NCBI GenBank assembly: GCA_016938815.1
Contig: JAFGTX010000137.1
Coordinates: 1 to 11,968 of the forward strand
DNA from: Clostridia bacterium
GTDB taxonomy: Bacteria; Bacillota; Clostridia; Peptostreptococcales; Acidaminobacteraceae
Direction of reading: 5' to 3'
DNA length: 11,968 nucleotides
Shown here: positions 260 to 11,818 of the stretch, piece after piece
Numbering within the stretch: the stretch's first letter is position 1
Layout: every line of letters begins with the position of its first letter
Notes under the pieces: generated by a model
What the model was told of the DNA's origin: nothing
Databases searched by the model: none
The model's input: the letters and a program-made list of their open reading frames with translations, nothing else
Made by a program: the position numbers and the translations under genes

Positions 260-1096
260 CTACTTCTTATACCACGCATACATCATCGTACGCGTCAACG
301 ATTTTTCATAGGGATGAACCTCAGGCATTTCAGCACGGGTTAACCATGAGCCTTCTTTCAGTTCCGATGTATCTAGGGTGATGGTCTCATCACCATCCAG
401 TTCTGCAAAAAATCCAGTGAGCAAGCCACCGGTAATGCCCCACGGCTGACTGTCGTAGTAGCGAATGTTCTTCACTCTGATGCCCACTTCTTCAAAAACT
501 TCCCTACGCACAGCATCTTCAAGGGTTTCTCCAATTTCAACAAAACCGGCAATCAATGCATAGCGGTCGTAATTGCGGTCAGCATATTTCGTAAACAGCA
601 TTTTGTCGCCATTTTCTACCGCGACAATGACCACAGGACTGATTTGAGGATACTTCATCAAGCCACAGCTCGGGCAGGCCATCACCCGTTCATGATCTTT
701 CATGGCCATGGGTTGCCCACATTTGCCGCAGTACCGATTGCTTTGATACCAATCGTAAAGATGCCCCGCCGTATAGGCGATATGTCCGATGACATTATCC
801 GCCATATCAAAAAGTGTACGTCGATCCCTTCTGTCAAAGCCTTCTGTCAGCAAATGACTCTTTGTCCCTAAGTATAGATAATAAGGCGTTTCATCTATGG
901 CAAATAAGTACATAAACTCATCCGCATCACTTCCGATGATTGTCTCTACATCGGAAAGACTGGGATATAAGTCGTTTTCTTCATTTTCGTCAATCACAAA
1001 CTGCATGTCATCAACCACAATCACCTTGCTGTCTCGATCGATCGGGGACTTTCTATAGGTGATGTCCATCTGTTTTGGTGCTATATCTTGTATCAT
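260..1096 (-). CDS. nudC: NAD(+) diphosphatase NudC (Nudix hydrolase with C4 zinc ribbon)
   Basis: The ORF 260..1270 contains a Nudix box GFVEIGETLEDAVRREVFEEVGI (GX5EX7REUXEEXGU) and a CGKCG...CPSCG zinc-ribbon motif upstream of it, which is the NudC architecture. The start is placed at ATG 1096..1094 (MIQDIAPKQMDITYRK...) because it has a GGAG RBS 8 nt upstream. The longer ORF extension (1097..1270) would overlap the 3' end of the upstream yihY-like gene. Stop is TAG at 260..262. Confidence 0.85.
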   Translation of the reverse strand: MIQDIAPKQMDITYRKSPIDRDSKVIVVDDMQFVIDENEENDLYPSLSDVETIIGSDADEFMYLFAIDETPYYLYLGTKSHLLTEGFDRRDRRTLFDMADNVIGHIAYTAGHLYDWYQSNRYCGKCGQPMAMKDHERVMACPSCGLMKYPQISPVVIVAVENGDKMLFTKYADRNYDRYALIAGFVEIGETLEDAVRREVFEEVGIRVKNIRYYDSQPWGITGGLLTGFFAELDGDETITLDTSELKEGSWLTRAEMPEVHPYEKSLTRTMMYAWYKK

Positions 1097-1130: not shown

Positions 1131-2054
1131 TTATTTGCGCTTTTTATTGCTTCCCTTTTTATTATTACTACGTTTTTCCATACCACACAATACTTTCTTG
1201 ATAATATCACTGTCACGATGTTGACTTTGATGAACGAACCCATCCAACAAAATCGAATTAAGCTCTGCACCTATCATCAGTACGATACCAGTAAAATAAA
1301 GCCAAACCATTAAAATTACCACCGCCGCCAAGGAACCGTAGATAATGGAATATCGTCCAAAGTTGGAGACAAAATAAGAAAAGCCATAAGACATCAACAT
1401 CCAGAAGACGATGGCAAAGGTCGCTCCCTTCCATACATCTTTGAACCTTAGTTTCTTAGTAGGCAAGATCAAGTACATCAACAAAATATCCAGTACCATG
1501 ACGCCGACAATAAAGAACCACCGGACGTAGGAAAAGATGCTAATGAATTCCGCGGACATTGGAATAAAATAACTGACCAAGGACAAAAATTCCTTACCCA
1601 TAATGGATAGAATCGCCAAGACGACGGTCATCACCATGAAGGCAAAGGTATAGAGTATGCCAATCAGCTTCGCTTTAAAAAAACCACGGTAGCATTCCAC
1701 ACGATAAGCGACGTTCAGTGCACGTATCAGTGCTTCGACGCCTCTTGACGCCGTATACAGTGTCACAATCGCCGCCACAGGAATATAACCCGTCTCATCA
1801 AATAGAACGATATCCTTTATGTACTCCGAAATGACCACCGCTGAATCCAAGGGCAAAATACCATTGAGTACTTGAAGCACCATATCCGGGTCCAGAGAAA
1901 AACGTCCAAATATCGACAACAGGAAAATCAGAAAAGGAAAAAGTGACAACAACAAAAAAAATGCCAATTGAGCACTCAATGCCGTAATCTGATGTTCTCT
2001 GTATCTATAACGCAATTCCCAAAGTAAATTACTACAAAAGGATAAATTAAACAT
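1131..2054 (-). CDS. yihY: YihY/BrkB-family integral membrane protein (historically mis-called ribonuclease BN)
   Basis: 307-aa polytopic membrane protein with the family-typical N-terminal 'ITALSAQLAFFLLLSLFPFL' segment followed by multiple TM helices and a short basic C-terminal tail. ATG at 2054..2052 with GGGGGA 5 nt upstream. 34-nt gap to nudC suggests co-transcription. Confidence 0.85.
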   Translation of the reverse strand: MFNLSFCSNLLWELRYRYREHQITALSAQLAFFLLLSLFPFLIFLLSIFGRFSLDPDMVLQVLNGILPLDSAVVISEYIKDIVLFDETGYIPVAAIVTLYTASRGVEALIRALNVAYRVECYRGFFKAKLIGILYTFAFMVMTVVLAILSIMGKEFLSLVSYFIPMSAEFISIFSYVRWFFIVGVMVLDILLMYLILPTKKLRFKDVWKGATFAIVFWMLMSYGFSYFVSNFGRYSIIYGSLAAVVILMVWLYFTGIVLMIGAELNSILLDGFVHQSQHRDSDIIKKVLCGMEKRSNNKKGSNKKRK

Positions 2055-2074
2055 AGTATTCCCCCAGTGTTTTT

Positions 2075-2083
2075 ATTATACCA
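2075..2083 (-). promoter_or_regulatory. Extended -10 element (TGgTATAAT) of a putative promoter for the yihY-nudC-AEC operon
   Basis: Minus-strand sequence ...caagTGGTATAATaaaaacactgggggaatactATG. This is a perfect TATAAT with an upstream TG. The -35 is poor (TTAATA), as is common with extended -10 promoters. The predicted leader is only ~15 nt and contains the GGGGGA RBS. Confidence 0.45.
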
Positions 2084-2130
2084 CTTGAAAGGCCATTTAT
2101 TAAAAGTGTATTAAAAGAACTGTCTTAGAT

Positions 2131-2159
2131 TTGTATTGCACGCTTTTAAGGGGTATCAT
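2131..2159 (+). promoter_or_regulatory. Putative sigma-A-type promoter for the hflK-hflC-like pair (TTGTAT-17-TATCAT)
   Basis: -35-like TTGTAT at 2131-2136, 17-nt spacer, -10 TATCAT at 2154-2159. It lies ~37 nt upstream of the AAGGAGG RBS at 2184-2190. Motif quality is only moderate. Confidence 0.35.
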
Positions 2160-2196
2160 ATCAATATGAGCAACAATTATCTAAGGAGGAATGAAC

Positions 2197-3147
2197 ATGG
2201 CAGGAAAATTATCGAAATCCATGCTGCTGATTATTGTTCTTGCACTATTGGCGCTTGCCGGCATGAACAGTTTCTTTTTCCTCGAAAACTCTGAACAAGC
2301 GGTTATTCAGCGTTTTGGAGAAAAAGTCGCAGTCATTGACAAATCGGGTATGAATTTCAAACTACCATTTGTTGATAAAGTTTATATCATCAACACAAAG
2401 GAAATTCGAAGTGTACAATACGGCTACCGTCCGGACAATACACCGACACCAACTAGCGTACCAACTTATGTGGATTATCAAGATGAACAAATCGTATTAA
2501 CAAAAGGCTCTTACCTCGTGAACATCGGCGCAATCATTCAATACCGTATTACGGATGCTGCTGATTATATCTACAATGTTGACGATCAAAGTGGTACCCT
2601 ACGCCTTGCTTTTGAAAGTGTTCTAAGAAGAAACATGCAAAATAAGGATTTGGAAGATGCCTTGATCAACAAGGATTCCATTGCGGTTGAAATCCTACCT
2701 GAGTTAACTCAGAAGGTAAACAGCTATGGCCTCGGTATCACCATTGTAGAAGTTAAATTTACGGATGTATTGCTCCCTGAAAAAGTTCAATTTGCTTATG
2801 ACGACGTCAATATCGCAGAAAACGAGAAAGACGAATTTGTAAGTAAGGCAGCAAAATACACCAATGAAAAATTGCCAGCTGCAAGAGCGGAAGCTTACCA
2901 ACGCATCCAATCCGCAGAAGCTTATAAAGCGGAAAAAATCGCTCAGGCCCGTGGTGACGTAGAAAACTTCTTACAGGTTTACGAAAAGTATAAAGTATCA
3001 CAAGATGTTACAAAAACAAGATTGTATATTGAAACTATGGAACAAATTCTCCAAAATTCAACGCAAAAGTACATTCTTGATATGGATGGCAGCGGTACGG
3101 TTAAATACTTGCCTCTGAATCCAGAAGTCATGAAAGGGGGACAATAA
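2197..3147 (+). CDS. hflK: HflK-like SPFH/band-7 family membrane protein
   Basis: Single N-terminal TM helix (LLIIVLALLALAG), then an SPFH domain with HflK-type motifs (QAVIQRFGEK, IQYRITDAADYIYNV, FESVLRRNMQN, ITIVEVKFTDVLLPEKVQFAYDDVNIAE, AEAYKAEKIAQARGDVENFL, TKTRLYIETMEQIL, KYLPL). The start is placed at ATG 2197 (6 nt after AAGGAGG 2184-2190). The ORF-track start ATG 2191 abuts the RBS with no spacer. Confidence 0.85.
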   Translation: MAGKLSKSMLLIIVLALLALAGMNSFFFLENSEQAVIQRFGEKVAVIDKSGMNFKLPFVDKVYIINTKEIRSVQYGYRPDNTPTPTSVPTYVDYQDEQIVLTKGSYLVNIGAIIQYRITDAADYIYNVDDQSGTLRLAFESVLRRNMQNKDLEDALINKDSIAVEILPELTQKVNSYGLGITIVEVKFTDVLLPEKVQFAYDDVNIAENEKDEFVSKAAKYTNEKLPAARAEAYQRIQSAEAYKAEKIAQARGDVENFLQVYEKYKVSQDVTKTRLYIETMEQILQNSTQKYILDMDGSGTVKYLPLNPEVMKGGQ

Positions 3148-3148
3148 G

Positions 3149-4177
3149 ATGCAATTCAATAATCAAAACCCCAATGGTCAAAATTTCAACGATTTTCAAG
3201 AAAAGACAAGGCAACGTGCCGAAGACATTGCAAAAAACGCAAAAAAAGCCGCTAAACGTGGCATAGCCGCACTAATTATACTCTTTGTACTAATCGGTGC
3301 CAGCAGTTTCTTCTACATCGTTGCAGAAGACGAAGTCGCTACTGTCAAACAACTGGGCGAAACCAAAAAAGTCATCGTCGATGTGGACAATGACACAGCG
3401 GCTAGTCAAAGTCAACTTGATCCTAAATTCGCTAATATCGAAATCGTACGCGATAAGGGTCTCTTCTTCAAGATTCCTTTCATCACAACGGTTGAAAAAG
3501 ATACCAGCAAGTTGATTACCTATATCTCAAACTCTGCGCAAATCAATACAAAAGACAAGATCAAATACCAAATCTCGATGTTTGCACAATGGGAAATTTC
3601 TCATCCAGGTCTTTACAGATCATCACTTGGCAACGTTCAAAGAGCCAATGCCAATATCGATGAAGTAGCCTATGCCGTTGTTATCGAGAAAATCAATGGA
3701 TTGACAAGCAGAGAATTCTTAACAGACAAAGAAGCCCTTTATACAGCACTTGACGGCGCCCTTGTAGAGCTTAATGAAAAAATGGCCCCTAAAGGGATCG
3801 TCTTAAAGGACATCGAAGTTTACAGAACTATTTTACCAGATTCAAACATCGAATCGACTTATAAGAAAATGGTGGCAGAACGTGGTGCCATCGCTCAGAA
3901 AAAACGTTCTGAAGGTCAAGAGCTCTATCAAAATACGGTAGCTGACACTGACAGAAAAGTGGCTGAAACTATTGCTGAATCGATTGAGACTTCTGAAAAA
4001 ATCATCGGTGAAGCGGATGCATCTGCTCTTGAAATCTATGCAGAAGCCTTCAGTAAGGACCCTGAATTCTACGAATACTGGAGAACGCTCAAGTCTTATG
4101 AGAAGACCATCAATTCAGATACGGTCATCTACATGGATAAGAACAACGATTACTTGAAATATTTTAGAGGTAATTAG
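3149..4177 (+). CDS. hflC: HflC-like SPFH/band-7 family membrane protein
   Basis: ATG is 1 nt after the hflK-like TAA, with GGGGGA 7 nt upstream, indicating translational coupling. Features: TM helix IAALIILFVLIGASSFFYIV, an SPFH core, and a C-terminal HflC-type segment (AERGAIAQKKRSEGQELYQN...IIGEADASALEIYAEAFSKDPEFYEYWRTLKSYEKTI). It has an unusually Q/N-rich cytoplasmic N-terminus (MQFNNQNPNGQNFNDFQEK...). Confidence 0.8.
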   Translation: MQFNNQNPNGQNFNDFQEKTRQRAEDIAKNAKKAAKRGIAALIILFVLIGASSFFYIVAEDEVATVKQLGETKKVIVDVDNDTAASQSQLDPKFANIEIVRDKGLFFKIPFITTVEKDTSKLITYISNSAQINTKDKIKYQISMFAQWEISHPGLYRSSLGNVQRANANIDEVAYAVVIEKINGLTSREFLTDKEALYTALDGALVELNEKMAPKGIVLKDIEVYRTILPDSNIESTYKKMVAERGAIAQKKRSEGQELYQNTVADTDRKVAETIAESIETSEKIIGEADASALEIYAEAFSKDPEFYEYWRTLKSYEKTINSDTVIYMDKNNDYLKYFRGN

Positions 4178-4204: not shown

Positions 4205-4238
4205 AAAATCCAACCGAATCATCCGGTTGGATTTTTTT
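4205..4238. terminator. Shared bidirectional rho-independent terminator between the convergent hflC-like gene and the giant ATPase gene
   Basis: Perfect 10-bp stem AATCCAACCG (4207-4216) / CGGTTGGATT (4224-4233) with a 7-nt loop. It is followed by T7 (4232-4238) on the plus strand and preceded by A4, so it gives a TTTTC run when read on the minus strand. It sits 28 nt after the hflC-like stop and 20 nt after the giant gene's stop. Confidence 0.8.
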
Positions 4239-4257: not shown

Positions 4258-7200
4258 TTAGTTATTTGCCTTTAAAGTTTCATATACATTCTTTATTTTT
4301 TCTATATGTGCTGTCAATTCTTGAAGGCTAAGGACTGCTTGTCCAACTTTGTCATCACCTTTCACCAGTTTGTTCTTATTAAAGAGTCCTTTAATTTCTT
4401 CATAACGCTGGTGCTCGTCTTCTGTTAGACAGTCATTGATTTCCTTCCACTTCAGCATATTGGATTCTGCACCGTTTGTAAGGGTTTGACAATCATTTTC
4501 ATAACTGCCCACCACTTGTTTGAAGAGTTCTTCCTCATTCATCACGGAAACGACACGCTCGGCAATTTTGTTCATATTACGGTAGGATCCCTGTAATTTA
4601 AATGCAGGTTCCATACGATACTCTTCAGCTTGTGCCGCTGAAGCAATATAAGCCATATTGACCTTTAAAACGATATCTCTAACCTTACTTAGTTTATGAA
4701 GAACCTCAATGTATTCGTTGAGTTCATCTGAACTATAGTTTCCTTCCAGCTCTACCGATTCGCGATCCGCACCGGATGCCATTGCCACTAAGCCATAGAT
4801 ATCAGAAGGATTTCGATTGGTCAATTTTGATAGCACCGGATTCGAAGTTAAGCAGTTTTCAATATAACTCAGCTTAAAAGCCTCTTCATTCTCCCGCAAC
4901 ATATCCCCTAGGTTATAAACGTCAGCACGGTTGGCCAACATATCCGGAATTTTAAATTTCTCACCACTCTCCGTATATGGATTCCCTGCCATAACGACTG
5001 CAATTTTCTTGCCGCGAAGGTCAAAGGTTTGTCCAACACCATCATAGACCCCTTCAATTTTACGCTGTCCATCACATAAGGAAATGAATTTCTGTAAAAA
5101 TTCAGGATGACAATGTTGAATATCATCGACATAGAGCATGATGTTATTGCCCATTTTAAGCGCTATGTTCAACTTTCGAAGCTCTTCTTTGGCACTGGAA
5201 TGACCTGCTTTTTCAGGATCCAGAGAGGTTATCTCATTGCCTAATGATGGACCGTTCACCTTTACCATAATAAAGCCCAGTCTATTGGCCACATACTCCA
5301 TTAAGGTTGTTTTACCATAGCCCGGCGGAGATACAAGGAGCAATAACCCCATAAGGTCTGTTCTCTTGTCATTTCCAACTACGCCCATTTGTTTGGCTAG
5401 GTTATCACCAATCAATGGCAGGTAGACTTTATCAATCAGCTTATTTCTTACAAAAGAAGTAAGGACGGTTGGTCTAAAGTCATCTAGGCGCAATGCCTCT
5501 TTGAAAGATTTAATGAGATCTGATTTAAGCGCCTGATAAGCCATATAGTCTGGTACAGTATTTTCAGTGAAGTGCTTCATCTTTTGCATGAATGCCGTAT
5601 AGTGAAGGGTATAATTCCCGTTATCCACTTGCCCATGGTTTCCAACAAGCCCCTCGATAGTGAGCTTGGTACCCGACTGGATGACGTTATCCAACTTGGC
5701 ATCTTTCTCGATTAACAAAACGATGACTTCATCCAAAACCCCGGCAATATCTGACGCCTCTAAAATGATTGGGCTATTTTCTTCTTGCTGTGCTTGCCAG
5801 TAGGCAAAAACCCATTCTTTCGCCAAGTAAAACTGACCTTCCAAATCCTTTTCACTCGCTTTCAATGAGTTTTCAAAGGTTTCCAGTGCTTTCACATCTC
5901 GAAGATAAGCCATAAAACCGTCATAGACTTGCTTGGCCAGCATGCTGATTACAAAAGTATCACCTGTCATCAACTCTTTACACAAATAGTCTGCAGCTTC
6001 AGGGATGCTGTCTGCCGAATAAAAAGGCAATTCATCATAGGCCGTTTCAAATTGCTCGATGATTAAAGGCAAATAGTTTTCGATGCGTGGTGGCGTCGCA
6101 AAAAAACCGCTGATTTTTGCCAACTCTGAGAGTCGGGCTGCCATTTGCTCTTTCGTCGTCTTATCCACTAAACGATTCCAAAACAGACGTGCCATAGCAC
6201 GTACTTCACTTCTATAAATCAGCAAATCGACTGTATGGAAGAGTTCTAGTAAGCCTCGCAAAATTTTTGAACCGTCTTCGTCGTGAACACCTTTGGTATA
6301 GCCCTCTTGGTAACGCTTTTCCATATAGGCTCTAACGGTTTCCTTAAGTTGACTTTCCGACATATCATAAAGGGCTCCTCGATCATAACCCTTCCCATCT
6401 GCCATCTCAAAAATAGAATAGGCCAGATATTCACCACGATAAACCTTACTATTTTCCGAAATGATGCTTTGATCAAATACATGACGATACTGCTCGATTT
6501 TAGGTTCCTGCACGCGATCCCAAAAATCCGTACCTGTTATGTGATAGTATAAGTGTTGATCCTTCTGAACAATGGACAAATCAATGGTCTTTCTATTCAC
6601 AGAGAAATGGTGTTGTCCGAATTTAATGACATCCTTACCCTGTAAATAGAGTTCCTGACGATCTTTCAACTGACGAATGGTATTCTCTTTTAAGGCTTTT
6701 AACTTTGAACTTAATTCATCGGCTTTGACCGTATCGCCCAAAGCCCGCAACTCCGAGGTAATATCACGCACTTTTTCTGCCATGATGTCGGTTGCCAGAT
6801 AGCCATTGATCTTTTCGACAGAATCAAATCCTGCCACGCGATTTTCAATACCGCTGATAATCCTTGTTGCAGAGTCAAACAATGTCACTAATTTCTTATT
6901 CAACTTATCCAAGAGAGTCTGTTTGCGTGTCTCAAAGGTACTGTAAATTTCCTCACGCTTTTCGCCTAGCTGCGTCAAGTACTCATCAAACTCAGAAAAT
7001 TTGCCCTCGAGCTCTTGAATCTGTACCATCACCTTATTTAGGTAGCTATCGCACTTTTCTTCGGTATCCGCAACTTCTAGATAATTTACAACCGCTTGTC
7101 CCAGTAGGCGCATTTGTGCACTAAACTGAATCGCCATCTCGCTTTTATTGAAGCTTTCAATTTTCGTTTTCAGCTTTGCCTTGGCATTGTTAATTTGAGA

Positions 7201-9138
7201 AAACAGTGCTGAAATCTTTTCGATGATTTCGGTCGAAACCGTTGGATCATCTATCTTAAAGTTGCTGACAATGTCCATCAAAAGCTCTAAATCCAATGAT
7301 GTCTTGTTCATTTTTTCTGCCAGTTCTTGACCTTCTTGGGATTTTGAAACGTCATCAATCCCCTCCTGTAAGGTCTCTACCGCTTCTTCATAGGGTTTTA
7401 AGCCATCAGGACCAATTAAAAACTGAATGCATTGATTTGAAAAGATATCATTTTGTTCTTTAACGCTTGTGTCAAGGGATTCAACCAGTTCTAAGTCCAC
7501 ATACATGAGGTCTCTTAAGGACGCTATTTTTCCACGCAGACTACGGATGTCGCCGAGCACCTCAACGTATTCATAAACATTCTCAAAGCTGCCATATGCC
7601 AGTTTCTTTAGCAGCACCTCTGTCTCTTCTTCTGTTTCAGTGACTTGCTTAATGGTCGCATTTTTTATTCTCGTCACCTTTTCGAATTCGCCAATGGCAA
7701 AAGTTGCCGTTTCTTTTACTTCTTTTAGCACATCCGATAGGCCAAATGCCTCCTCTTTACCAATCCAAAAGTAAGCATCCAATATACCTTGGGTCTCTTT
7801 TACGATATCCATGTAGACGCTGGCATAACTTTCACCCTTTTGAATCATCTTGCTTACACCACGACAAGCGGCAATACAAGTCACCACATCTTTGTTGCCG
7901 ATTTTATAAAGCGCGGAATCATTATTGCCCTCTAACTGATAGTCTTTGCCGACATAAGGCGTTTGCCAAACTTGCAGGGCGTGATTTTTCCGTGGTTCGT
8001 CTTCATGACGAAAAACAACCATTTCTCCATTATTGAAATGAGAATACCCGCTACATACAATAGGCGTATCAATGGTTTGTTCGATTACATTGTAAGAATA
8101 AATCAGGTAGGTACCGCTATCCATGTTATAGAAAATGTACTGATAATCTTCACCATTGGAAGATGCGATCAATTCATCGAATACCGGCTGTTCTACAGGC
8201 ACTTCGAAAATTTTATACTCGCCATTTTGAAGATAGTAGCCTTGAGGGAAAATCAATCCGTGTCCACCTGGCAGCAACTTGCAAGTATGGGCTATAGAAT
8301 CAATCCTTAAAACGTTTTTCAGTTTATTGTTGAAGACAAAGTAACGGTAGTCCTTTTCCTTGTAAGGCAATATTTTAAGAATGATTAACTGACCTAAATC
8401 CACATATGAAATTTCGGCATCATCCAAGTTTTGATCAGGGTCTTCAACGTCCTCTGAATAAATTCCTTTGCCTGTTTCCGTATTGTCTTCCACCTTAATA
8501 GTCAGGTCCCCGCCAATTGTTTCAACAAAAACCTTATCCAAAATGGAGACATGAGGGTGAAGTCCCGTCCGCTGGTTATCGCGGGTCGCTTTGACAAAAT
8601 CAAGTTCATTGCCTAGATTAAACTTCACTTCATGGTCACTTCTATTGTCGACGTATTTTAGATGATTTTCTTCAATCTGCCATTTGAAGACTTTGATGTC
8701 CATGACATTGTCACTGGTTTGAAAAATCATATAGAAATACGGCCCTAAGATGCTAAATTTTGCAAAGAAGGTGTTTTTGTAGTATCGGTATAGATCATCA
8801 AAGTCTTTTAGGAATTGTTGATCCTCGATAAATCCTAAAGATTCTTCTGTAAAACTACCTTCTACATAACGGTATACCGCAAAAACATCTTTCAAGGCCA
8901 CTTTTTGTTTCAAACCTATATGAACGTTGTATCCAAATAGGAAAAAGTCCCCTACCGGTGCCATATCTCGTGGAATACAATTGTTCTCCGTCAGAATCCG
9001 TTCACTGGATAGAAGTTTGCTTTCTATGGCGCCGAAAACTTCTTTTCTAACCGCATTCAGTTGTTCCGCTCTGGCAATCAAGTCGTCTCCCTGCTTTTGA
9101 AGACGACTTTTTATTACTTCATAGGTTCCATTATTCAT
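4258..9138 (-). CDS. Giant (1626 aa) uncharacterized multidomain protein with a MoxR/AAA_5-type AAA+ ATPase module near the C-terminus; third gene of the NfeD-flotillin operon
   Basis: Uninterrupted 4.9-kb ORF. ATG at 9138..9136 has a GGAG RBS 6 nt upstream, and this RBS lies inside the last flotillin codons (flotillin stop TAA at 9140-9142, i.e. a 1-nt gap). The ORF track started it at an in-frame TTG at 9150. P-loop LLLVSPPGYGKTTL at aa ~1272-1285 (nt ~5320). Walker B IMLYVDDIQH. Then ...KIAVVMAGNPYTESGEKFKIPDMLANRADVY, which matches the MoxR/AAA_5 '...vlATqNP.E..G...LP.AlLDRF' pattern. The ~1240 aa before the ATPase are a beta-rich, Y/N/G-rich N-terminal region (aa ~150-450) and a long helical/coiled-coil middle; no family is recognisable by eye. 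Confidence 0.85.
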   Translation of the reverse strand: MNNGTYEVIKSRLQKQGDDLIARAEQLNAVRKEVFGAIESKLLSSERILTENNCIPRDMAPVGDFFLFGYNVHIGLKQKVALKDVFAVYRYVEGSFTEESLGFIEDQQFLKDFDDLYRYYKNTFFAKFSILGPYFYMIFQTSDNVMDIKVFKWQIEENHLKYVDNRSDHEVKFNLGNELDFVKATRDNQRTGLHPHVSILDKVFVETIGGDLTIKVEDNTETGKGIYSEDVEDPDQNLDDAEISYVDLGQLIILKILPYKEKDYRYFVFNNKLKNVLRIDSIAHTCKLLPGGHGLIFPQGYYLQNGEYKIFEVPVEQPVFDELIASSNGEDYQYIFYNMDSGTYLIYSYNVIEQTIDTPIVCSGYSHFNNGEMVVFRHEDEPRKNHALQVWQTPYVGKDYQLEGNNDSALYKIGNKDVVTCIAACRGVSKMIQKGESYASVYMDIVKETQGILDAYFWIGKEEAFGLSDVLKEVKETATFAIGEFEKVTRIKNATIKQVTETEEETEVLLKKLAYGSFENVYEYVEVLGDIRSLRGKIASLRDLMYVDLELVESLDTSVKEQNDIFSNQCIQFLIGPDGLKPYEEAVETLQEGIDDVSKSQEGQELAEKMNKTSLDLELLMDIVSNFKIDDPTVSTEIIEKISALFSQINNAKAKLKTKIESFNKSEMAIQFSAQMRLLGQAVVNYLEVADTEEKCDSYLNKVMVQIQELEGKFSEFDEYLTQLGEKREEIYSTFETRKQTLLDKLNKKLVTLFDSATRIISGIENRVAGFDSVEKINGYLATDIMAEKVRDITSELRALGDTVKADELSSKLKALKENTIRQLKDRQELYLQGKDVIKFGQHHFSVNRKTIDLSIVQKDQHLYYHITGTDFWDRVQEPKIEQYRHVFDQSIISENSKVYRGEYLAYSIFEMADGKGYDRGALYDMSESQLKETVRAYMEKRYQEGYTKGVHDEDGSKILRGLLELFHTVDLLIYRSEVRAMARLFWNRLVDKTTKEQMAARLSELAKISGFFATPPRIENYLPLIIEQFETAYDELPFYSADSIPEAADYLCKELMTGDTFVISMLAKQVYDGFMAYLRDVKALETFENSLKASEKDLEGQFYLAKEWVFAYWQAQQEENSPIILEASDIAGVLDEVIVLLIEKDAKLDNVIQSGTKLTIEGLVGNHGQVDNGNYTLHYTAFMQKMKHFTENTVPDYMAYQALKSDLIKSFKEALRLDDFRPTVLTSFVRNKLIDKVYLPLIGDNLAKQMGVVGNDKRTDLMGLLLLVSPPGYGKTTLMEYVANRLGFIMVKVNGPSLGNEITSLDPEKAGHSSAKEELRKLNIALKMGNNIMLYVDDIQHCHPEFLQKFISLCDGQRKIEGVYDGVGQTFDLRGKKIAVVMAGNPYTESGEKFKIPDMLANRADVYNLGDMLRENEEAFKLSYIENCLTSNPVLSKLTNRNPSDIYGLVAMASGADRESVELEGNYSSDELNEYIEVLHKLSKVRDIVLKVNMAYIASAAQAEEYRMEPAFKLQGSYRNMNKIAERVVSVMNEEELFKQVVGSYENDCQTLTNGAESNMLKWKEINDCLTEDEHQRYEEIKGLFNKNKLVKGDDKVGQAVLSLQELTAHIEKIKNVYETLKANN
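4891..5403 (-). other. AAA+ (MoxR/AAA_5-like) ATPase domain within the giant protein, approximately aa 1250-1420
   Basis: Walker A SPPGYGKTT (Lys codon within 5302-5322). Walker B YVDDIQ at 5116-5133 (an Asp-Asp variant of the usual Asp-Glu). NP...G and NRADVY motifs downstream. Domain boundaries are approximate. Confidence 0.6.
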
Positions 9139-9139
9139 G

Positions 9140-11164
9140 TTATTCTCCAAACGTTGAACCCACTAATTTTGCTGGTAAATCCGCCACGCCTGCTTTATTC
9201 ACTGTATCTAATAATTTCCCTAACATGGTACGGTCACCGCCACTTGCAGAGGACATCATCTTCGTAATGGCGCCTGAAATCGTTAAGTGCATTAGGTCTT
9301 CTGACGATAAGTTGAATCTACCTACTAGTGTTTGCAATTGCTTTTGGAAATAGTCCGCATCACCTGTAATCAACGTTTCCTTAATATCCGTCATGACATC
9401 ACTGTTGCCGACAAATCTATCCACTGCCTTACCTTGCGTGATCGAACCAATGATCTTATCAAAGAACATCGTCTCACCACCGACGATATCAATTTTTGCT
9501 GTTTTAAGCGCTTCTTGGATAACAGCGGCTTGAGCGTCTGCAATATCTTTTTGAATGGCAATTTTAGCAAGTTCAATATCTTTTTCTTTTGCCAATTCCA
9601 ACTTGAACTCTTCATGGTCTCTGCCCACTTCGTCCAGTAACTTCATGCTATTCGCCTTTTCTTTGATACCTTCTGCTTCTGAAAGATACTTACGTTTAAG
9701 GATATCCGCTTCAACGATACCATCTTTTTCTTTTACTTCTACCTTCGCTGTTTGTCCTTTTGCTTCTGCCATTGCTTTTGATTCGATAACCTTTGCGTCG
9801 GCAATACCTTCAGCAGAACGATCAATTACTTTAGCATCTGCCAGTACCTTAATGGCTTCCGCCTCTTTTTGAGAAGCTTTAAGTTTTGCATCCGCGTCAA
9901 TGATTGTTTTTTCAGCTTCTTTTTCGGCCGCTAATTTTGCCGCCTCAGCCGCTTTTACTTCTCTTACTTTTCTTGTTTCCGCATCTTCTTCCGCTTTCTT
10001 AATCGCTACGTTTTTCACACGATCCGCTTCAGCAAATGCACGGGTATCTTTGATTTTTTCTTCTTCTGCTACTGTATCTTTTTCAACAGCGACTCTTTCG
10101 CGAATCACCACTTGGACATTTTTCTTTTCAACTTCAACTTGCTTTTCTTTATCGATGGTTGCTAAATCGACCAACTTGTCTTTTTCTGTTCTCTCTAACA
10201 AACGTTTACGTTCAACACGTTCTATCTCAACCGCTTCCGTACTTTCTTTTGATTTGGCTGCAATGATGATTTGACGTTGCTTGTTTTCTTCTGCTACGCC
10301 AATTTCCTCTTCTGTTTTTACACGAGCGATTTCTGCTTTATAGCGCTCTTCTTGAGCAACTTTTTCGGCTTCTGCATTTTCTCTGGAGTTGATTACTGAA
10401 ATTTCACGTCGTTGCTTGGCCTCTGCTTCTGCCTGTTGCTTTTCAAGTTCTAAAATCGCCTCTTTGGCAGCAACGTCCTGATTCTTGATTGTCTTTTCCT
10501 TTTCACGCTGAATTTCATTGGCTAAAATCATTTGCTTGGCGGTCAATTCAGTGATCTTCTTAATACCTTCCGCATCCAAGATATTGTCCGCATTCAACAC
10601 ATTAATATCTGTTTGTTCCAAATAATCGATTGCCGCATCGTCAAGAACATAACCGTTCAGGTCGGTTCCGATAATCTGAAGAATTTCGTGTTTAAAACTT
10701 TCTCTGTCTGTGTAAAGTTCCACAAAATCAAATTTTTTACCTACTGTTTTTAAGGCTTCCGAGAACTTCGCATCGAAAAATGCCATCAGCGTTTCTGGAT
10801 CAGAAGCTTTTTGACAACCTAAGGATTGAGCTACCTTTAGAACATCTTCTTGGGTTTGATTAACACGTACAAAGAAGGCAACACGTATGTCAGCCCTTAA
10901 ATTATCCTGACAAATCAGACCATCCTTGCCCTCTCTAGCAATTTCAACCCTCTTTACCGAAATATCCATGATTTCAAAACGGTGTAAAATCGGTATAACG
11001 AACATGCCACCAAAACTTACAATTTGTCCACCAACCCCATTACGGATGATAACTTTTGATTGCTCAACTTTTTTATAGAATCTCGCGAATAGAGCTAACG
11101 CCCCCATAATTGTAATTAAAACTACGCCTATTGTTACCAGTGTCATTTGTGATATAAATCCCAT
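9140..11164 (-). CDS. Flotillin-family SPFH protein (FloT/YqiK-like), 674 aa with an extended E/A/K-rich coiled coil
   Basis: ATG 11164..11162 with GGAGG 9 nt upstream. N-terminal TM (LVTIGVVLITIMGALALFA), then an SPFH domain (VIIRNGVGGQIVSFGGMFVIPILHRFEIMDISVKRVEI...). Then ~250 aa of EA-rich heptad-like low-complexity sequence (EAEAKQRRE..., AEEDAETRKVREVKAAEAAKLAAEKEAEK, ADAKVI repeats), followed by a C-terminal flotillin tail. This is the classic flotillin architecture. Confidence 0.9.
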   Translation of the reverse strand: MGFISQMTLVTIGVVLITIMGALALFARFYKKVEQSKVIIRNGVGGQIVSFGGMFVIPILHRFEIMDISVKRVEIAREGKDGLICQDNLRADIRVAFFVRVNQTQEDVLKVAQSLGCQKASDPETLMAFFDAKFSEALKTVGKKFDFVELYTDRESFKHEILQIIGTDLNGYVLDDAAIDYLEQTDINVLNADNILDAEGIKKITELTAKQMILANEIQREKEKTIKNQDVAAKEAILELEKQQAEAEAKQRREISVINSRENAEAEKVAQEERYKAEIARVKTEEEIGVAEENKQRQIIIAAKSKESTEAVEIERVERKRLLERTEKDKLVDLATIDKEKQVEVEKKNVQVVIRERVAVEKDTVAEEEKIKDTRAFAEADRVKNVAIKKAEEDAETRKVREVKAAEAAKLAAEKEAEKTIIDADAKLKASQKEAEAIKVLADAKVIDRSAEGIADAKVIESKAMAEAKGQTAKVEVKEKDGIVEADILKRKYLSEAEGIKEKANSMKLLDEVGRDHEEFKLELAKEKDIELAKIAIQKDIADAQAAVIQEALKTAKIDIVGGETMFFDKIIGSITQGKAVDRFVGNSDVMTDIKETLITGDADYFQKQLQTLVGRFNLSSEDLMHLTISGAITKMMSSASGGDRTMLGKLLDTVNKAGVADLPAKLVGSTFGE

Positions 11165-11191
11165 TAAATCCTGCCTCCATCAATAATTGTT

Positions 11192-11818
11192 TTATAATTT
11201 TCTTATGTAATACACTTCTTTTTCTTGATCTTTTTCCAAAACGAATGCCACTTCATTTTTCTCAAAAGAATCGTCTTCACATTTTGTTTTTACATTGATT
11301 ACGATTGACGTATCACCCGCTTCAATAATGGCTTGACCGATTTGGTCTCCTTCCAAATTACTTTTCAAGGTGCAGGTTTTGTTCAGCACCCTACACGCCA
11401 CATTATTTTTTGATTTCTGTTCAAAGACATGTGTTCTCAAGAATTTGATTTGGCCCTTTGCAGTTAGAAGACTCAGCGCAAATGCCGGTATAAGCAAAAC
11501 ACCTGCCATTTTTCCACCTGCTGCAATCGGCAAAAAATACATAAGCATCGTCAGTAGCCAAAAGGTCAAAGCCAACATGCTGAGCACCAAGGTCATCGGC
11601 ACTTGTCCAATGTTCATAAATACTGCCAGTGCATTCAGCAATCCACTGCTTTCAAGGCCCTCTGTTTCAACCTCAATATCTAAGTCAAAAAAGTCAAAGT
11701 CAAATAAGCCTAAACTTGCAAGCACCCAATAGCCTTGTGTCAAAATCAATAAACTTGTTGGAATAATATTTACGCCTTGAAATGCAAATTTTATGAGTTC
11801 CGTTTTGTTCCCCCCCAT
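11192..11818 (-). CDS. NfeD-like / YqiJ-like (DUF1449-type) membrane protein with C-terminal OB-fold; canonical flotillin partner
   Basis: 208 aa. A DFDFFDLDIEVE acidic segment is followed by a hydrophobic hairpin (ALAVFMNIGQVPMTLVLSMLALTFWLLTMLMYFLPIAA...LLIPAFALSLL) and a beta-strand-rich C-terminus (ACRVLNKTCTLKS...GDTSIVINVKTKCEDDSFEKNEVAFVLEKDQEKEVYYI), consistent with an NfeD short-form OB domain. It is immediately upstream of flotillin (27-nt gap), as in yqiJ-yqiK and yuaF-floT. The ATG is embedded in a G7 run and has an in-frame TGA directly upstream. Confidence 0.75.
   Translation of the reverse strand: MGGNKTELIKFAFQGVNIIPTSLLILTQGYWVLASLGLFDFDFFDLDIEVETEGLESSGLLNALAVFMNIGQVPMTLVLSMLALTFWLLTMLMYFLPIAAGGKMAGVLLIPAFALSLLTAKGQIKFLRTHVFEQKSKNNVACRVLNKTCTLKSNLEGDQIGQAIIEAGDTSIVINVKTKCEDDSFEKNEVAFVLEKDQEKEVYYIRKL

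What the first reader, a model, noticed from the sequence alone, without database searches (positions are those of the whole stretch)
2197..4177. A second, separate SPFH system (HflK/HflC-like pair) convergent on the flotillin operon, with no adjacent FtsH
HflK/HflC form the membrane cage for FtsH in Proteobacteria, and the pair is uncommon in Firmicutes (B. subtilis has none). Here the pair sits convergently next to the flotillin operon and shares its terminator, so two different SPFH scaffolds are clustered at one locus. The HflC-like protein also carries an unusual Q/N-rich low-complexity N-terminal cytoplasmic tail (MQFNNQNPNGQNFNDFQ), which is not typical of HflC. The clustering suggests a membrane-microdomain 'island', or that one of the SPFH modules was acquired.
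Basis: partly seen in the sequence, partly recalled or inferred. Interest (0 to 1): 0.5.

Follow-up and report, generated by a model that had tools for sequence, protein, structure and literature searches.

The report
Ordinary HflK/HflC pair beside flotillin operon
The two genes are a normal, vertically inherited HflK/HflC membrane-scaffold pair of a Clostridia bacterium, and their position next to a flotillin operon is an accident of this one lineage rather than a functional "membrane island".

Summary
Window 2197-3147 and 3149-4177 encode an HflK/HflC pair. Both pass NCBIfam's equivalog cut-offs, and E. coli HflC is the best structural match. The pair runs convergently into a DUF3686-ATPase/flotillin/NfeD-like operon across an 80-nt spacer with one strong hairpin, and no ftsH lies nearby.

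The interpretation mostly does not hold.
- HflK/HflC pairs are common in Clostridia. All 80 species-level genomes sampled carry HflC, and 74 show hflK directly upstream.
- 40 of those genomes keep the same divergent yihY/brkB neighbour as the window.
- None of the 80, and none of five closer relatives (HflC 76-89% identical), has the flotillin operon next to hflC. The usual downstream gene is a DAHP synthase.
- Relatives carry the flotillin module elsewhere. In one MAG it sits on a different contig from hflKC.
- None of 83 DUF3686-flotillin loci has hflKC within 10 kb.
- ftsH is not adjacent in any locus examined, nor in E. coli.
- The N/Q-rich HflC tail occurs in all 120 closest homologues and in distant clostridial HflCs. 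E. coli carries a comparable tail on HflK.
- Base composition is flat across the window.

Interest is low.

The parts
2055..2196 (.). Divergent intergenic region between yihY/brkB (-) and hflK (+). It holds the hflK ribosome-binding site AAGGAGG at 2183-2189.
   Evidence: Sequence. The promoter scan lists only minus-strand sites here. The hflK promoter is not identified.
2197..3147 (+). hflK, 316 aa. It has a very short N-terminus, one transmembrane helix (about residues 9-29), then an SPFH domain and coiled coil.
   Evidence: TIGR01933 scores 215.1 bits against a cut-off of 159.4, and Band_7 gives 4.6e-21. phmmer gives 3.9e-41 to E. coli HflK chain 7vhp_E. The transmembrane start comes from a hydropathy scan.
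3149..4177 (+). hflC, 342 aa, starting 1 nt after the hflK stop, which suggests translational coupling.
   Evidence: TIGR01932 scores 140.9 bits against a cut-off of 134.4. phmmer gives 3e-28 to E. coli HflC chain 7vhp_G. The best Foldseek matches of the AF2 model are E. coli HflC chains. The identical sequence is named 'protease modulator HflC' by NCBI.
3149..3262 (+). Cytoplasmic N/Q-rich N-terminal tail of HflC, residues 1-38.
   Evidence: Sequence. AF2 pLDDT is below 50 for residues 1-12. All 120 closest homologues have a tail, 28-74 aa long.
3263..3325 (+). Transmembrane helix of HflC, about residues 39-59.
   Evidence: Hydropathy scan. AF2 predicts a helix over residues 11-52. Lys/Arg residues just before it fit an N-terminus-inside orientation (inference).
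4205..4238 (.). Predicted bidirectional intrinsic terminator. The order is an AAAA run, a stem-loop at 4209-4231, then a TTTTTTT run.
   Evidence: RNA folds of both strands give -24.3 kcal/mol, with z = -4.7 and z = -3.6. Sequence. The U-tract is strong for hflC (U7) and weaker for the minus strand (U4).
1131..2054 (-). yihY/brkB-family membrane protein, 307 aa. It is the conserved divergent neighbour of hflK.
   Evidence: Virul_fac_BrkB gives 3.4e-58 and TIGR00765 gives 1.5e-40. It lies divergent within 600 nt of hflK in 40 of 71 genome loci with enough upstream DNA.
4258..9138 (-). Neighbour, not part of the HflKC system. A 1626-aa DUF3686 + DUF7902 + AAA ATPase, last gene of the flotillin operon.
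   Evidence: Pfam, gene call. NCBI names it 'DNA repair ATPase'.
9140..11164 (-). Neighbour. A 674-aa flotillin-like SPFH protein.
   Evidence: Band_7 scores 30.1 bits. A homologue lies directly upstream of the DUF3686 gene in 58 of 58 loci with enough DNA.
11192..11818 (-). Neighbour. A 208-aa membrane protein in the NfeD/YqiJ position of the flotillin operon.
   Evidence: The only hit is a sub-threshold YqiJ_N match (E = 0.045). Homologues sit in the same position in L088-L090.

Best explanation
Window 2197-4177 is the resident hflK-hflC operon of an uncultured Clostridia bacterium related to Fusibacter and Acidaminobacter.

By homology, the two proteins insert by one N-terminal helix each and alternate to build a large SPFH cage on the outer face of the cytoplasmic membrane. 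That cage would enclose hexamers of the FtsH protease, encoded elsewhere in the genome, and control which membrane proteins reach it.

The pair belongs to a conserved unit, yihY/brkB <-> hflK-hflC. The DNA downstream of hflC is a variable region. In this lineage it holds the NfeD-like/flotillin/DUF3686-ATPase module followed by contractile-injection-system genes. The two SPFH systems are therefore neighbours by rearrangement, not by function.

Shown here: family membership, gene order, synteny, and the distribution of the tail.
Inferred: cage assembly, the FtsH partnership, membrane topology, and terminator function.
For: Family:
- Both proteins pass the NCBIfam equivalog cut-offs.
- The best PDB sequence matches are E. 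coli HflK and HflC from the FtsH-HflKC complex entries 7vhp, 7wi3, 9cz1 and 9cz2.
- The AF2 model has a confident SPFH core (pLDDT 80-94), and its top Foldseek hits are E. coli HflC chains, ahead of HflK, stomatin and prohibitin.

Vertical inheritance:
- hflK lies directly upstream of hflC on the same strand in 74 of 80 species-level genomes.
- yihY/brkB is divergent within 600 nt in 40 of 71 loci with enough upstream DNA, and in 38 of 46 loci with HflC at least 55% identical.
- The gene beyond brkB varies: 12 families across 39 loci.

Variable downstream region:
- The commonest downstream gene is a convergent DAHP synthase, in 24 of 46 loci.
- Relatives with 84-89% identical HflC have DAHP synthase-PolIV-DUF2179-NusG_II there.
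- Another 89% relative has a response-regulator cluster instead.
- A 76% relative has a ParE/YafQ toxin-antitoxin pair.
- Only the window has DUF3686 in that position.

Flotillin module elsewhere:
- MAG GCA_002919055.1 has hflKC on contig PPCM01000009 and the three-gene module on contig PPCM01000015.
- Two further genomes show two further contexts.
- None of 83 module loci has HflK, HflC or BrkB within 10 kb.

Other points:
- ftsH is not adjacent in any locus examined or in E. coli.
- GC is 0.38-0.40 across the HflK, HflC and flotillin-operon genes, with no codon-usage break.
- Identity to GCA_002919055.1 is HflK 90%, HflC 83%, BrkB 71%, against Flot 89%, DUF3686 78%, NfeD-like 55%.
Against: - No experiment or structure exists for a clostridial HflK/C complex, so the FtsH partnership rests on homology alone.
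- HflC clears its equivalog cut-off only narrowly (140.9 against 134.4 bits).
- ftsH of this organism was not located, because only 21.8 kb of the contig could be read.
- The far end of the inserted region was not reached, so 'insertion between hflC and the DAHP synthase gene' is inferred from relatives.
- The C-terminal coiled coil of the AF2 monomer has low confidence (pLDDT about 40-50). This is expected for a helix that packs only in the oligomer, but it means the cage-forming part is not independently supported.
Confidence: 0.85

Rival explanations
1. The two SPFH systems form a functional 'membrane-microdomain island'. They would be kept together because they cooperate or are co-regulated through the shared terminator region.
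For: They are 80 nt apart, convergent, with one hairpin between them. The same arrangement is seen on contigs from two sequencing runs, SRR13394436 and SRR13394437.
Against: - Adjacency is absent from 80 species-level genomes and from five closer relatives.
- It is absent from 83 module-bearing loci.
- In the same-genus MAG the two systems lie on different contigs.
- Convergent genes are not co-transcribed.
- The two runs have adjacent accession numbers and 100% identical proteins, so they count as one lineage.
Confidence: 0.03
2. The HflK/HflC pair was acquired horizontally into a Firmicute that would not normally have it.
For: B. subtilis lacks HflK/C (general knowledge). Hinderhofer et al. 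2009 infer lateral transfer in SPFH families generally (PMC2636767).
Against: - The pair and its yihY neighbour are conserved at the same position across Fusibacter, Acidaminobacter, Paramaledivibacter and many other genomes. Identity falls off smoothly from 89% to about 46%.
- More distant pairs (34-40% identity) occur in other Clostridia orders.
- There is no GC, GC3 or codon-usage anomaly.
Confidence: 0.03
3. In this clade HflK/C is a variant system. Its primary partner or client would be the conserved neighbour YihY/BrkB rather than, or in addition to, FtsH. The cytoplasmic tail, moved from HflK to HflC, would provide a clade-specific regulatory input.
For: - yihY stays next to hflK while the next gene out varies.
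- The tail is on HflC in all 120 close homologues and in distant clostridial ones. HflK has almost no tail, the reverse of E. coli.
- The first eight residues are semi-conserved, for example MNINQGEP and MNFNNQNP.
Against: - Conserved divergent neighbours are weak evidence of interaction.
- yihY linkage is lost in most lineages with HflC below 55% identity (3 of 34).
- The SPFH and coiled-coil regions align well with E. coli HflK/C.
- The tails share composition only. BLASTP finds no alignment between them.
Confidence: 0.1

Closest known systems
E. coli HflK/HflC (SPFH3a/b of Hinderhofer et al. 2009), the cage around the FtsH protease (PDB 7vhp, 7wi3, 9cz1, 9cz2)
   Same: - Two adjacent co-oriented paralogous genes in the order K then C.
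- One N-terminal transmembrane helix followed by an SPFH domain and a long coiled coil.
- TIGR01933 and TIGR01932 cut-offs passed.
- Best sequence and fold matches are to these proteins.
- ftsH is unlinked in both organisms.
- One subunit carries a polar, low-complexity cytoplasmic tail.
   Different: - The tail is on HflC (38 aa) rather than HflK (79 aa in E. coli), and the HflK N-terminus is only about 8 aa.
- HflK lacks the long C-terminal extension of the E. coli protein (316 against 419 aa).
- The genomic context is yihY <-> hflKC, not hfq-hflX-hflKC.
- The host is presumably a monoderm, so the cage would face the cell wall rather than a periplasm (inference).
HflK/HflC of Clostridium (Acetivibrio) thermocellum, Cthe_0665 and Cthe_0666
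   Same: An adjacent HflK/HflC pair in a member of the Clostridia, with FtsH genes at unlinked loci (Cthe_2253, Cthe_2276) (PMC3848806, PMC3039559).
   Different: It belongs to a different order. Acetivibrionales-type HflCs in the survey are only about 37% identical to the window's (L066). Its yihY linkage was not checked.
Bacterial flotillin-NfeD operons (SPFH2; B. subtilis FloT/YuaF, E. coli YqiK/YqiJ)
   Same: This is the neighbouring operon, not the finding itself. An SPFH protein follows a small membrane protein in the NfeD/YqiJ position.
   Different: HflK/C have no NfeD partner (PMC2636767). The neighbouring module also carries a 1626-aa DUF3686 AAA ATPase, linked to the flotillin gene in 58 of 58 loci. 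The canonical FloT and YqiK operons have no such gene.

Membership tests
HflK (TIGR01933, FtsH protease activity modulator) | Sequence scores above the curated equivalog cut-off, and higher on the HflK model than on the HflC model | tested here: met
   215.1 bits against a cut-off of 159.4. The hflC model gives only 28.3 bits. E. coli HflK is the best PDB sequence hit at 3.9e-41.
HflC (TIGR01932, protease modulator) | Sequence scores above the curated equivalog cut-off, and higher on the HflC model than on the HflK model | tested here: met
   140.9 bits against a cut-off of 134.4, a narrow pass. The hflK model gives 32.8 bits. E. coli HflC is the best PDB sequence hit at 3e-28 and the best fold hit, 7vhq_G at 1.9e-18.
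HflK/HflC system | Two paralogous genes adjacent, on the same strand, in the order K then C | tested here: met
   The genes are 1 nt apart in the window. The same order holds in 74 of 80 related genomes and in E. coli.
HflK/HflC system | Single N-terminal transmembrane anchor with the SPFH and coiled-coil body on the far side of the membrane | tested here: inconclusive
   One hydrophobic helix lies near each N-terminus. AF2 predicts a helix, an SPFH core and a long helix. Orientation is inferred only from positive charges before the transmembrane helix.
HflK/HflC system | Assembly into an alternating hetero-oligomeric cage | not testable with these tools
   Only a monomer model could be made. 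Its coiled-coil region has low pLDDT.
HflK/HflC system | Binds and modulates FtsH, and ftsH is present in the genome | not testable with these tools
   ftsH is not in the 21.8 kb of contig that could be read. FtsH is near-universal in bacteria (general knowledge).
Flotillin/NfeD operon (SPFH2), considered for the pair and rejected | A single SPFH gene with an NfeD-type partner | tested here: not met
   The pair consists of two SPFH paralogues with no NfeD gene. The FloT model gives only 20.3 bits for HflK and nothing for HflC.

The most novel reading that the evidence does not exclude
Clostridial HflK/C may be a distinct architectural variant. The cytoplasmic low-complexity tail sits on HflC instead of HflK and begins with a semi-conserved motif such as MNINQGEP or MNFNNQNP. 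The pair also travels with a divergently transcribed YihY/BrkB membrane protein. If so, the conserved three-gene unit could be a membrane quality-control module in which YihY is a dedicated client or partner.
Probability: 0.12. Interest if true: 0.35.

Novelty: already known. Interest (0 to 1): 0.1.

Why it matters
It matters little. The result removes a false lead: two SPFH systems side by side here do not mark a membrane-organisation island.

Three smaller points may be useful:
- HflK/C is widespread in Clostridia, so B. subtilis is a poor proxy for 'Firmicutes' on this question.
- In Clostridia the cytoplasmic tail of the complex is carried by HflC rather than HflK. Anyone extending the E. 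coli cage model to Gram-positive bacteria should take this into account.
- The region downstream of hflC is a variable slot in this genus, and this lineage has parked accessory modules there.

Tried and rejected
- PADLOC scan of the pair and the flotillin operon gave only noise: ZorB at 17.8 bits and mad8 at 14.3 bits. There is no support for a defence system.
- Rfam found no family at gathering score anywhere in the window.
- GC, GC3 and codon usage are flat, so they say nothing about transfer either way.
- I aligned the hflC 3' intergenic DNA with that of two close relatives to find an insertion breakpoint. Similarity stops at the stop codon, and each genome has its own spacer, so no breakpoint or repeat was defined.
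- A literature search for 'DUF3686' returned no papers. Searching flotillin, NfeD and 'DNA repair ATPase' found no paper that mentions the ATPase term.
- BLASTP of the window's HflC tail against the E. coli HflK tail found no alignment, so the resemblance is compositional only.
- The consensus terminator scan missed the 4209-4231 hairpin, probably because the A/T runs extend the stem. I used folding instead.
- I could not walk further along the 61.5-kb source contig, because look-ups are limited to proteins of the window or of earlier searches. The far boundary of the inserted region and the organism's ftsH therefore remain unlocated.
Full report
**What is in the window**

The window holds seven genes:
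- nudC-like NAD+ diphosphatase, 260-1096, minus strand.
- yihY/brkB-family membrane protein, 1131-2054, minus strand.
- hflK, 2197-3147, plus strand.
- hflC, 3149-4177, plus strand.
- A 1626-aa DUF3686 + DUF7902 + AAA ATPase, 4258-9138, minus strand.
- A 674-aa flotillin-like Band_7 protein, 9140-11164, minus strand.
- A 208-aa membrane protein, 11192-11818, minus strand.

The window is the first 12 kb of a 61.5-kb metagenome contig, SRR13394436_791. An identical arrangement occurs on a 14.7-kb contig from the neighbouring run SRR13394437.

**Checking the observation**

- The ORF tool starts gene 1 at 2191.
- hflC starts 1 nt after the hflK stop, behind a GGGGGA ribosome-binding site.
- HflK scores 215.1 bits on TIGR01933 (cut-off 159.4). 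HflC scores 140.9 bits on TIGR01932 (cut-off 134.4). Each scores far lower on the other's model.
- The best PDB sequence matches are E. coli HflK (3.9e-41) and HflC (3e-28) from the FtsH-HflKC cryo-EM entries 7vhp, 7wi3, 9cz1 and 9cz2.
- An AlphaFold model of HflC has a confident SPFH core (pLDDT 80-94), a disordered N-terminus (residues 1-12), a helix over residues 11-52 that includes the membrane anchor, and a long low-confidence C-terminal helix.
- The best Foldseek matches of that model in the PDB are E. coli HflC chains, ahead of HflK, stomatin, prohibitin and flotillin.
- The 80-nt spacer between the convergent stop codons folds into one hairpin at -24.3 kcal/mol. The z-score is -4.7 on the plus strand and -3.6 on the minus strand. 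AAAA precedes it and TTTTTTT follows it. A shared bidirectional terminator is therefore plausible, stronger for hflC than for the minus-strand operon.
- No window gene is FtsH.

**Is the pair unusual for its host?**

The HflC sequence is already in NCBI as 'protease modulator HflC [Clostridia bacterium]'. Named relatives at 59-65% identity are Fusibacter, Acidaminobacter and Paramaledivibacter.

I scanned one genome per species using two peptide patterns specific to this clade. That found 151 genomes with a relative, and the 80 kept are all Bacillota. In those 80:
- hflK lies directly upstream of hflC on the same strand in 74.
- yihY/brkB is divergent within 600 nt of hflK in 40 of 71 loci with enough upstream DNA.
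- That figure is 38 of 46 where HflC is at least 55% identical.
- The gene beyond brkB varies, with 12 families across 39 loci.

yihY <-> hflK-hflC is therefore the conserved resident unit. The literature agrees that HflK/C occurs in Clostridia with ftsH unlinked. C. thermocellum has Cthe_0665 and Cthe_0666 as HflK and HflC, and Cthe_2253 and Cthe_2276 as FtsH (PMC3848806, PMC3039559). HflK/C is the second-largest bacterial SPFH subfamily (PMC2636767).

**Is the adjacency to the flotillin operon meaningful?**

Starting from hflC:
- None of the 80 genomes has a DUF3686, flotillin or NfeD-like hit within 10 kb. 75 of them have at least 1 kb of downstream DNA, and the DUF3686 gene would begin 80 nt after hflC.
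- The commonest downstream gene is a convergent DAHP synthase, in 24 of 46 loci.
- Closer relatives found in metagenome and MAG assemblies give the same answer. Three relatives with HflC 84-89% identical have DAHP synthase-PolIV-DUF2179-NusG_II-ABC downstream.
- A fourth, at 89%, has a response-regulator/histidine-kinase cluster.
- A fifth, at 76%, has a ParE/YafQ toxin-antitoxin pair and unrelated genes.

The DNA after hflC is thus a variable slot in this genus.

Starting from the ATPase:
- The three-gene module (about 200 aa, 674 aa, about 1627 aa) is intact but elsewhere in relatives.
- In MAG GCA_002919055.1 hflKC is on contig PPCM01000009 and the module is on contig PPCM01000015.
- In 83 loci carrying an ATPase homologue (36-86% identity), flotillin lies directly upstream in 58 of 58 with enough DNA. 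HflK, HflC and BrkB are found in none.

The juxtaposition is specific to this one lineage.

**Which module moved?**

- Composition does not discriminate. GC is 0.38-0.40 across the HflK, HflC and flotillin-operon genes, with no codon-usage break.
- Identity to GCA_002919055.1 is HflK 90%, HflC 83%, BrkB 71%, against Flot 89%, DUF3686 78%, NfeD-like 55%.
- Both modules therefore look about equally old in the genus.
- The simplest reading is that hflKC stayed in place and the flotillin module was relocated into the variable slot. It arrived together with, or next to, contractile-injection-system genes found just beyond the window (Pvc16_N, DUF4280, a WHD + double-AAA ATPase).

**FtsH**

I used E. 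coli FtsH residues 188-596 as a probe. It scores 895 bits against 7vhp_A and e-150-class E-values against Thermotoga and Thermus FtsH. It finds no FtsH in any of the 94 loci held, including every hflKC locus. The single hit is the AAA domain of the injection-system ATPase. In E. coli K-12 the context is hfq-hflX-hflK-hflC-yjeT-purA, with no ftsH nearby. 'No adjacent FtsH' is the normal state and says nothing about function.

**The N/Q-rich tail**

- All 120 closest HflC homologues have 28-74 residues before the membrane helix (median 39; the window has 38). Their median N+Q content is 22%.
- Many begin with a similar motif, such as MNINQGEP, MNFNNQNP or MDNNNNRG.
- HflCs from other Clostridia orders, only 34-40% identical, also begin with N/Q-rich tails, for example MDNINNFQQQYKNQ....
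- Their HflK partners have almost no tail.
- E. coli is the mirror image. HflK begins MAWNQPGNNGQDRDPW..., with 79 N/Q/G-rich residues, and the HflC membrane helix starts at about residue 5.
- The two tails share composition only. BLASTP finds no alignment.

The tail is atypical for HflC only if E. coli is taken as the standard. It is the rule in Clostridia, and the complex as a whole keeps one polar cytoplasmic tail.

**Mechanism**

By homology (inference), HflK and HflC insert by their N-terminal helices, alternate into a large SPFH cage on the outer face of the membrane, and enclose FtsH hexamers to control access of membrane-protein substrates. None of this can be tested here. The organism's ftsH was not located, because only 21.8 kb of the contig could be read.

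The most novel reading still open is that clostridial HflK/C is a tail-swapped variant working with its conserved neighbour YihY/BrkB. I give that about 0.12.

**Verdict**

That is what the surveys show. The genes are already annotated as HflK/HflC-type, and interest is low.

Noticed in passing
L087 1-9815 (source contig SRR13394436_791, positions 12004-21818, just beyond the window's right end): Genes co-oriented with the flotillin operon look like the end of an extracellular contractile injection system (PVC/Afp-like). They comprise a Pvc16_N protein (4e-28), a DUF4280/PAAR-like protein (1e-37), a 700-aa WHD + double-AAA ATPase, a 936-aa Cu_amine_oxidN1 protein, and several proteins with no Pfam hit, including one of 1032 aa.
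   Followed up: partly
window 4258-11818; L088-L090 and L096-L175: The flotillin gene and the roughly 1626-aa DUF3686/DUF7902/AAA 'DNA repair ATPase' gene are strictly linked. Flotillin lies directly upstream in 58 of 58 loci with enough DNA, at ATPase identities of 36-86%. A small membrane protein precedes it in at least 45 loci. The ATPase has more than 4200 homologues, and the held library has no paper mentioning DUF3686. This module may deserve its own study.
   Followed up: partly
window 1131-2054 and 2197-4177; L004-L055: yihY/brkB is divergently paired with hflK in 40 of 71 genomes, while the next gene out varies (12 families across 39 loci). This suggests a conserved three-gene unit with no known rationale.
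   Followed up: partly
window 3149-3172; alignment A1 columns 1-11: The first eight residues of clostridial HflC are semi-conserved (MNINQGEP in 28 homologues, MNFNNQNP in 12, MDNNNNRG in 12, MDIHQGEP in 9), while the rest of the tail varies in length and sequence. This could be a short functional N-terminal motif.
   Followed up: partly
Its only hit is a weak YqiJ_N match (E = 0.045, 14.4 bits against a cut-off of 23). Its NfeD/YqiJ identity rests on position and topology alone.
   Followed up: partly
L012 2919-7805 (-), with similar ORFs in 18 other loci: A different giant protein (1628 aa) with a cytidylyltransferase-like domain lies upstream of brkB-hflKC in 19 related genomes. It is unrelated to the DUF3686 ATPase despite its similar length.
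   Followed up: no
L091-L093 and L084, downstream of hflC: The slot after hflC holds different accessory content in different close relatives: a response-regulator/PAS-EAL signalling cluster in one, and a ParE/YafQ toxin-antitoxin pair with YhcG in another. This suggests a recombination hot-spot.
   Followed up: partly
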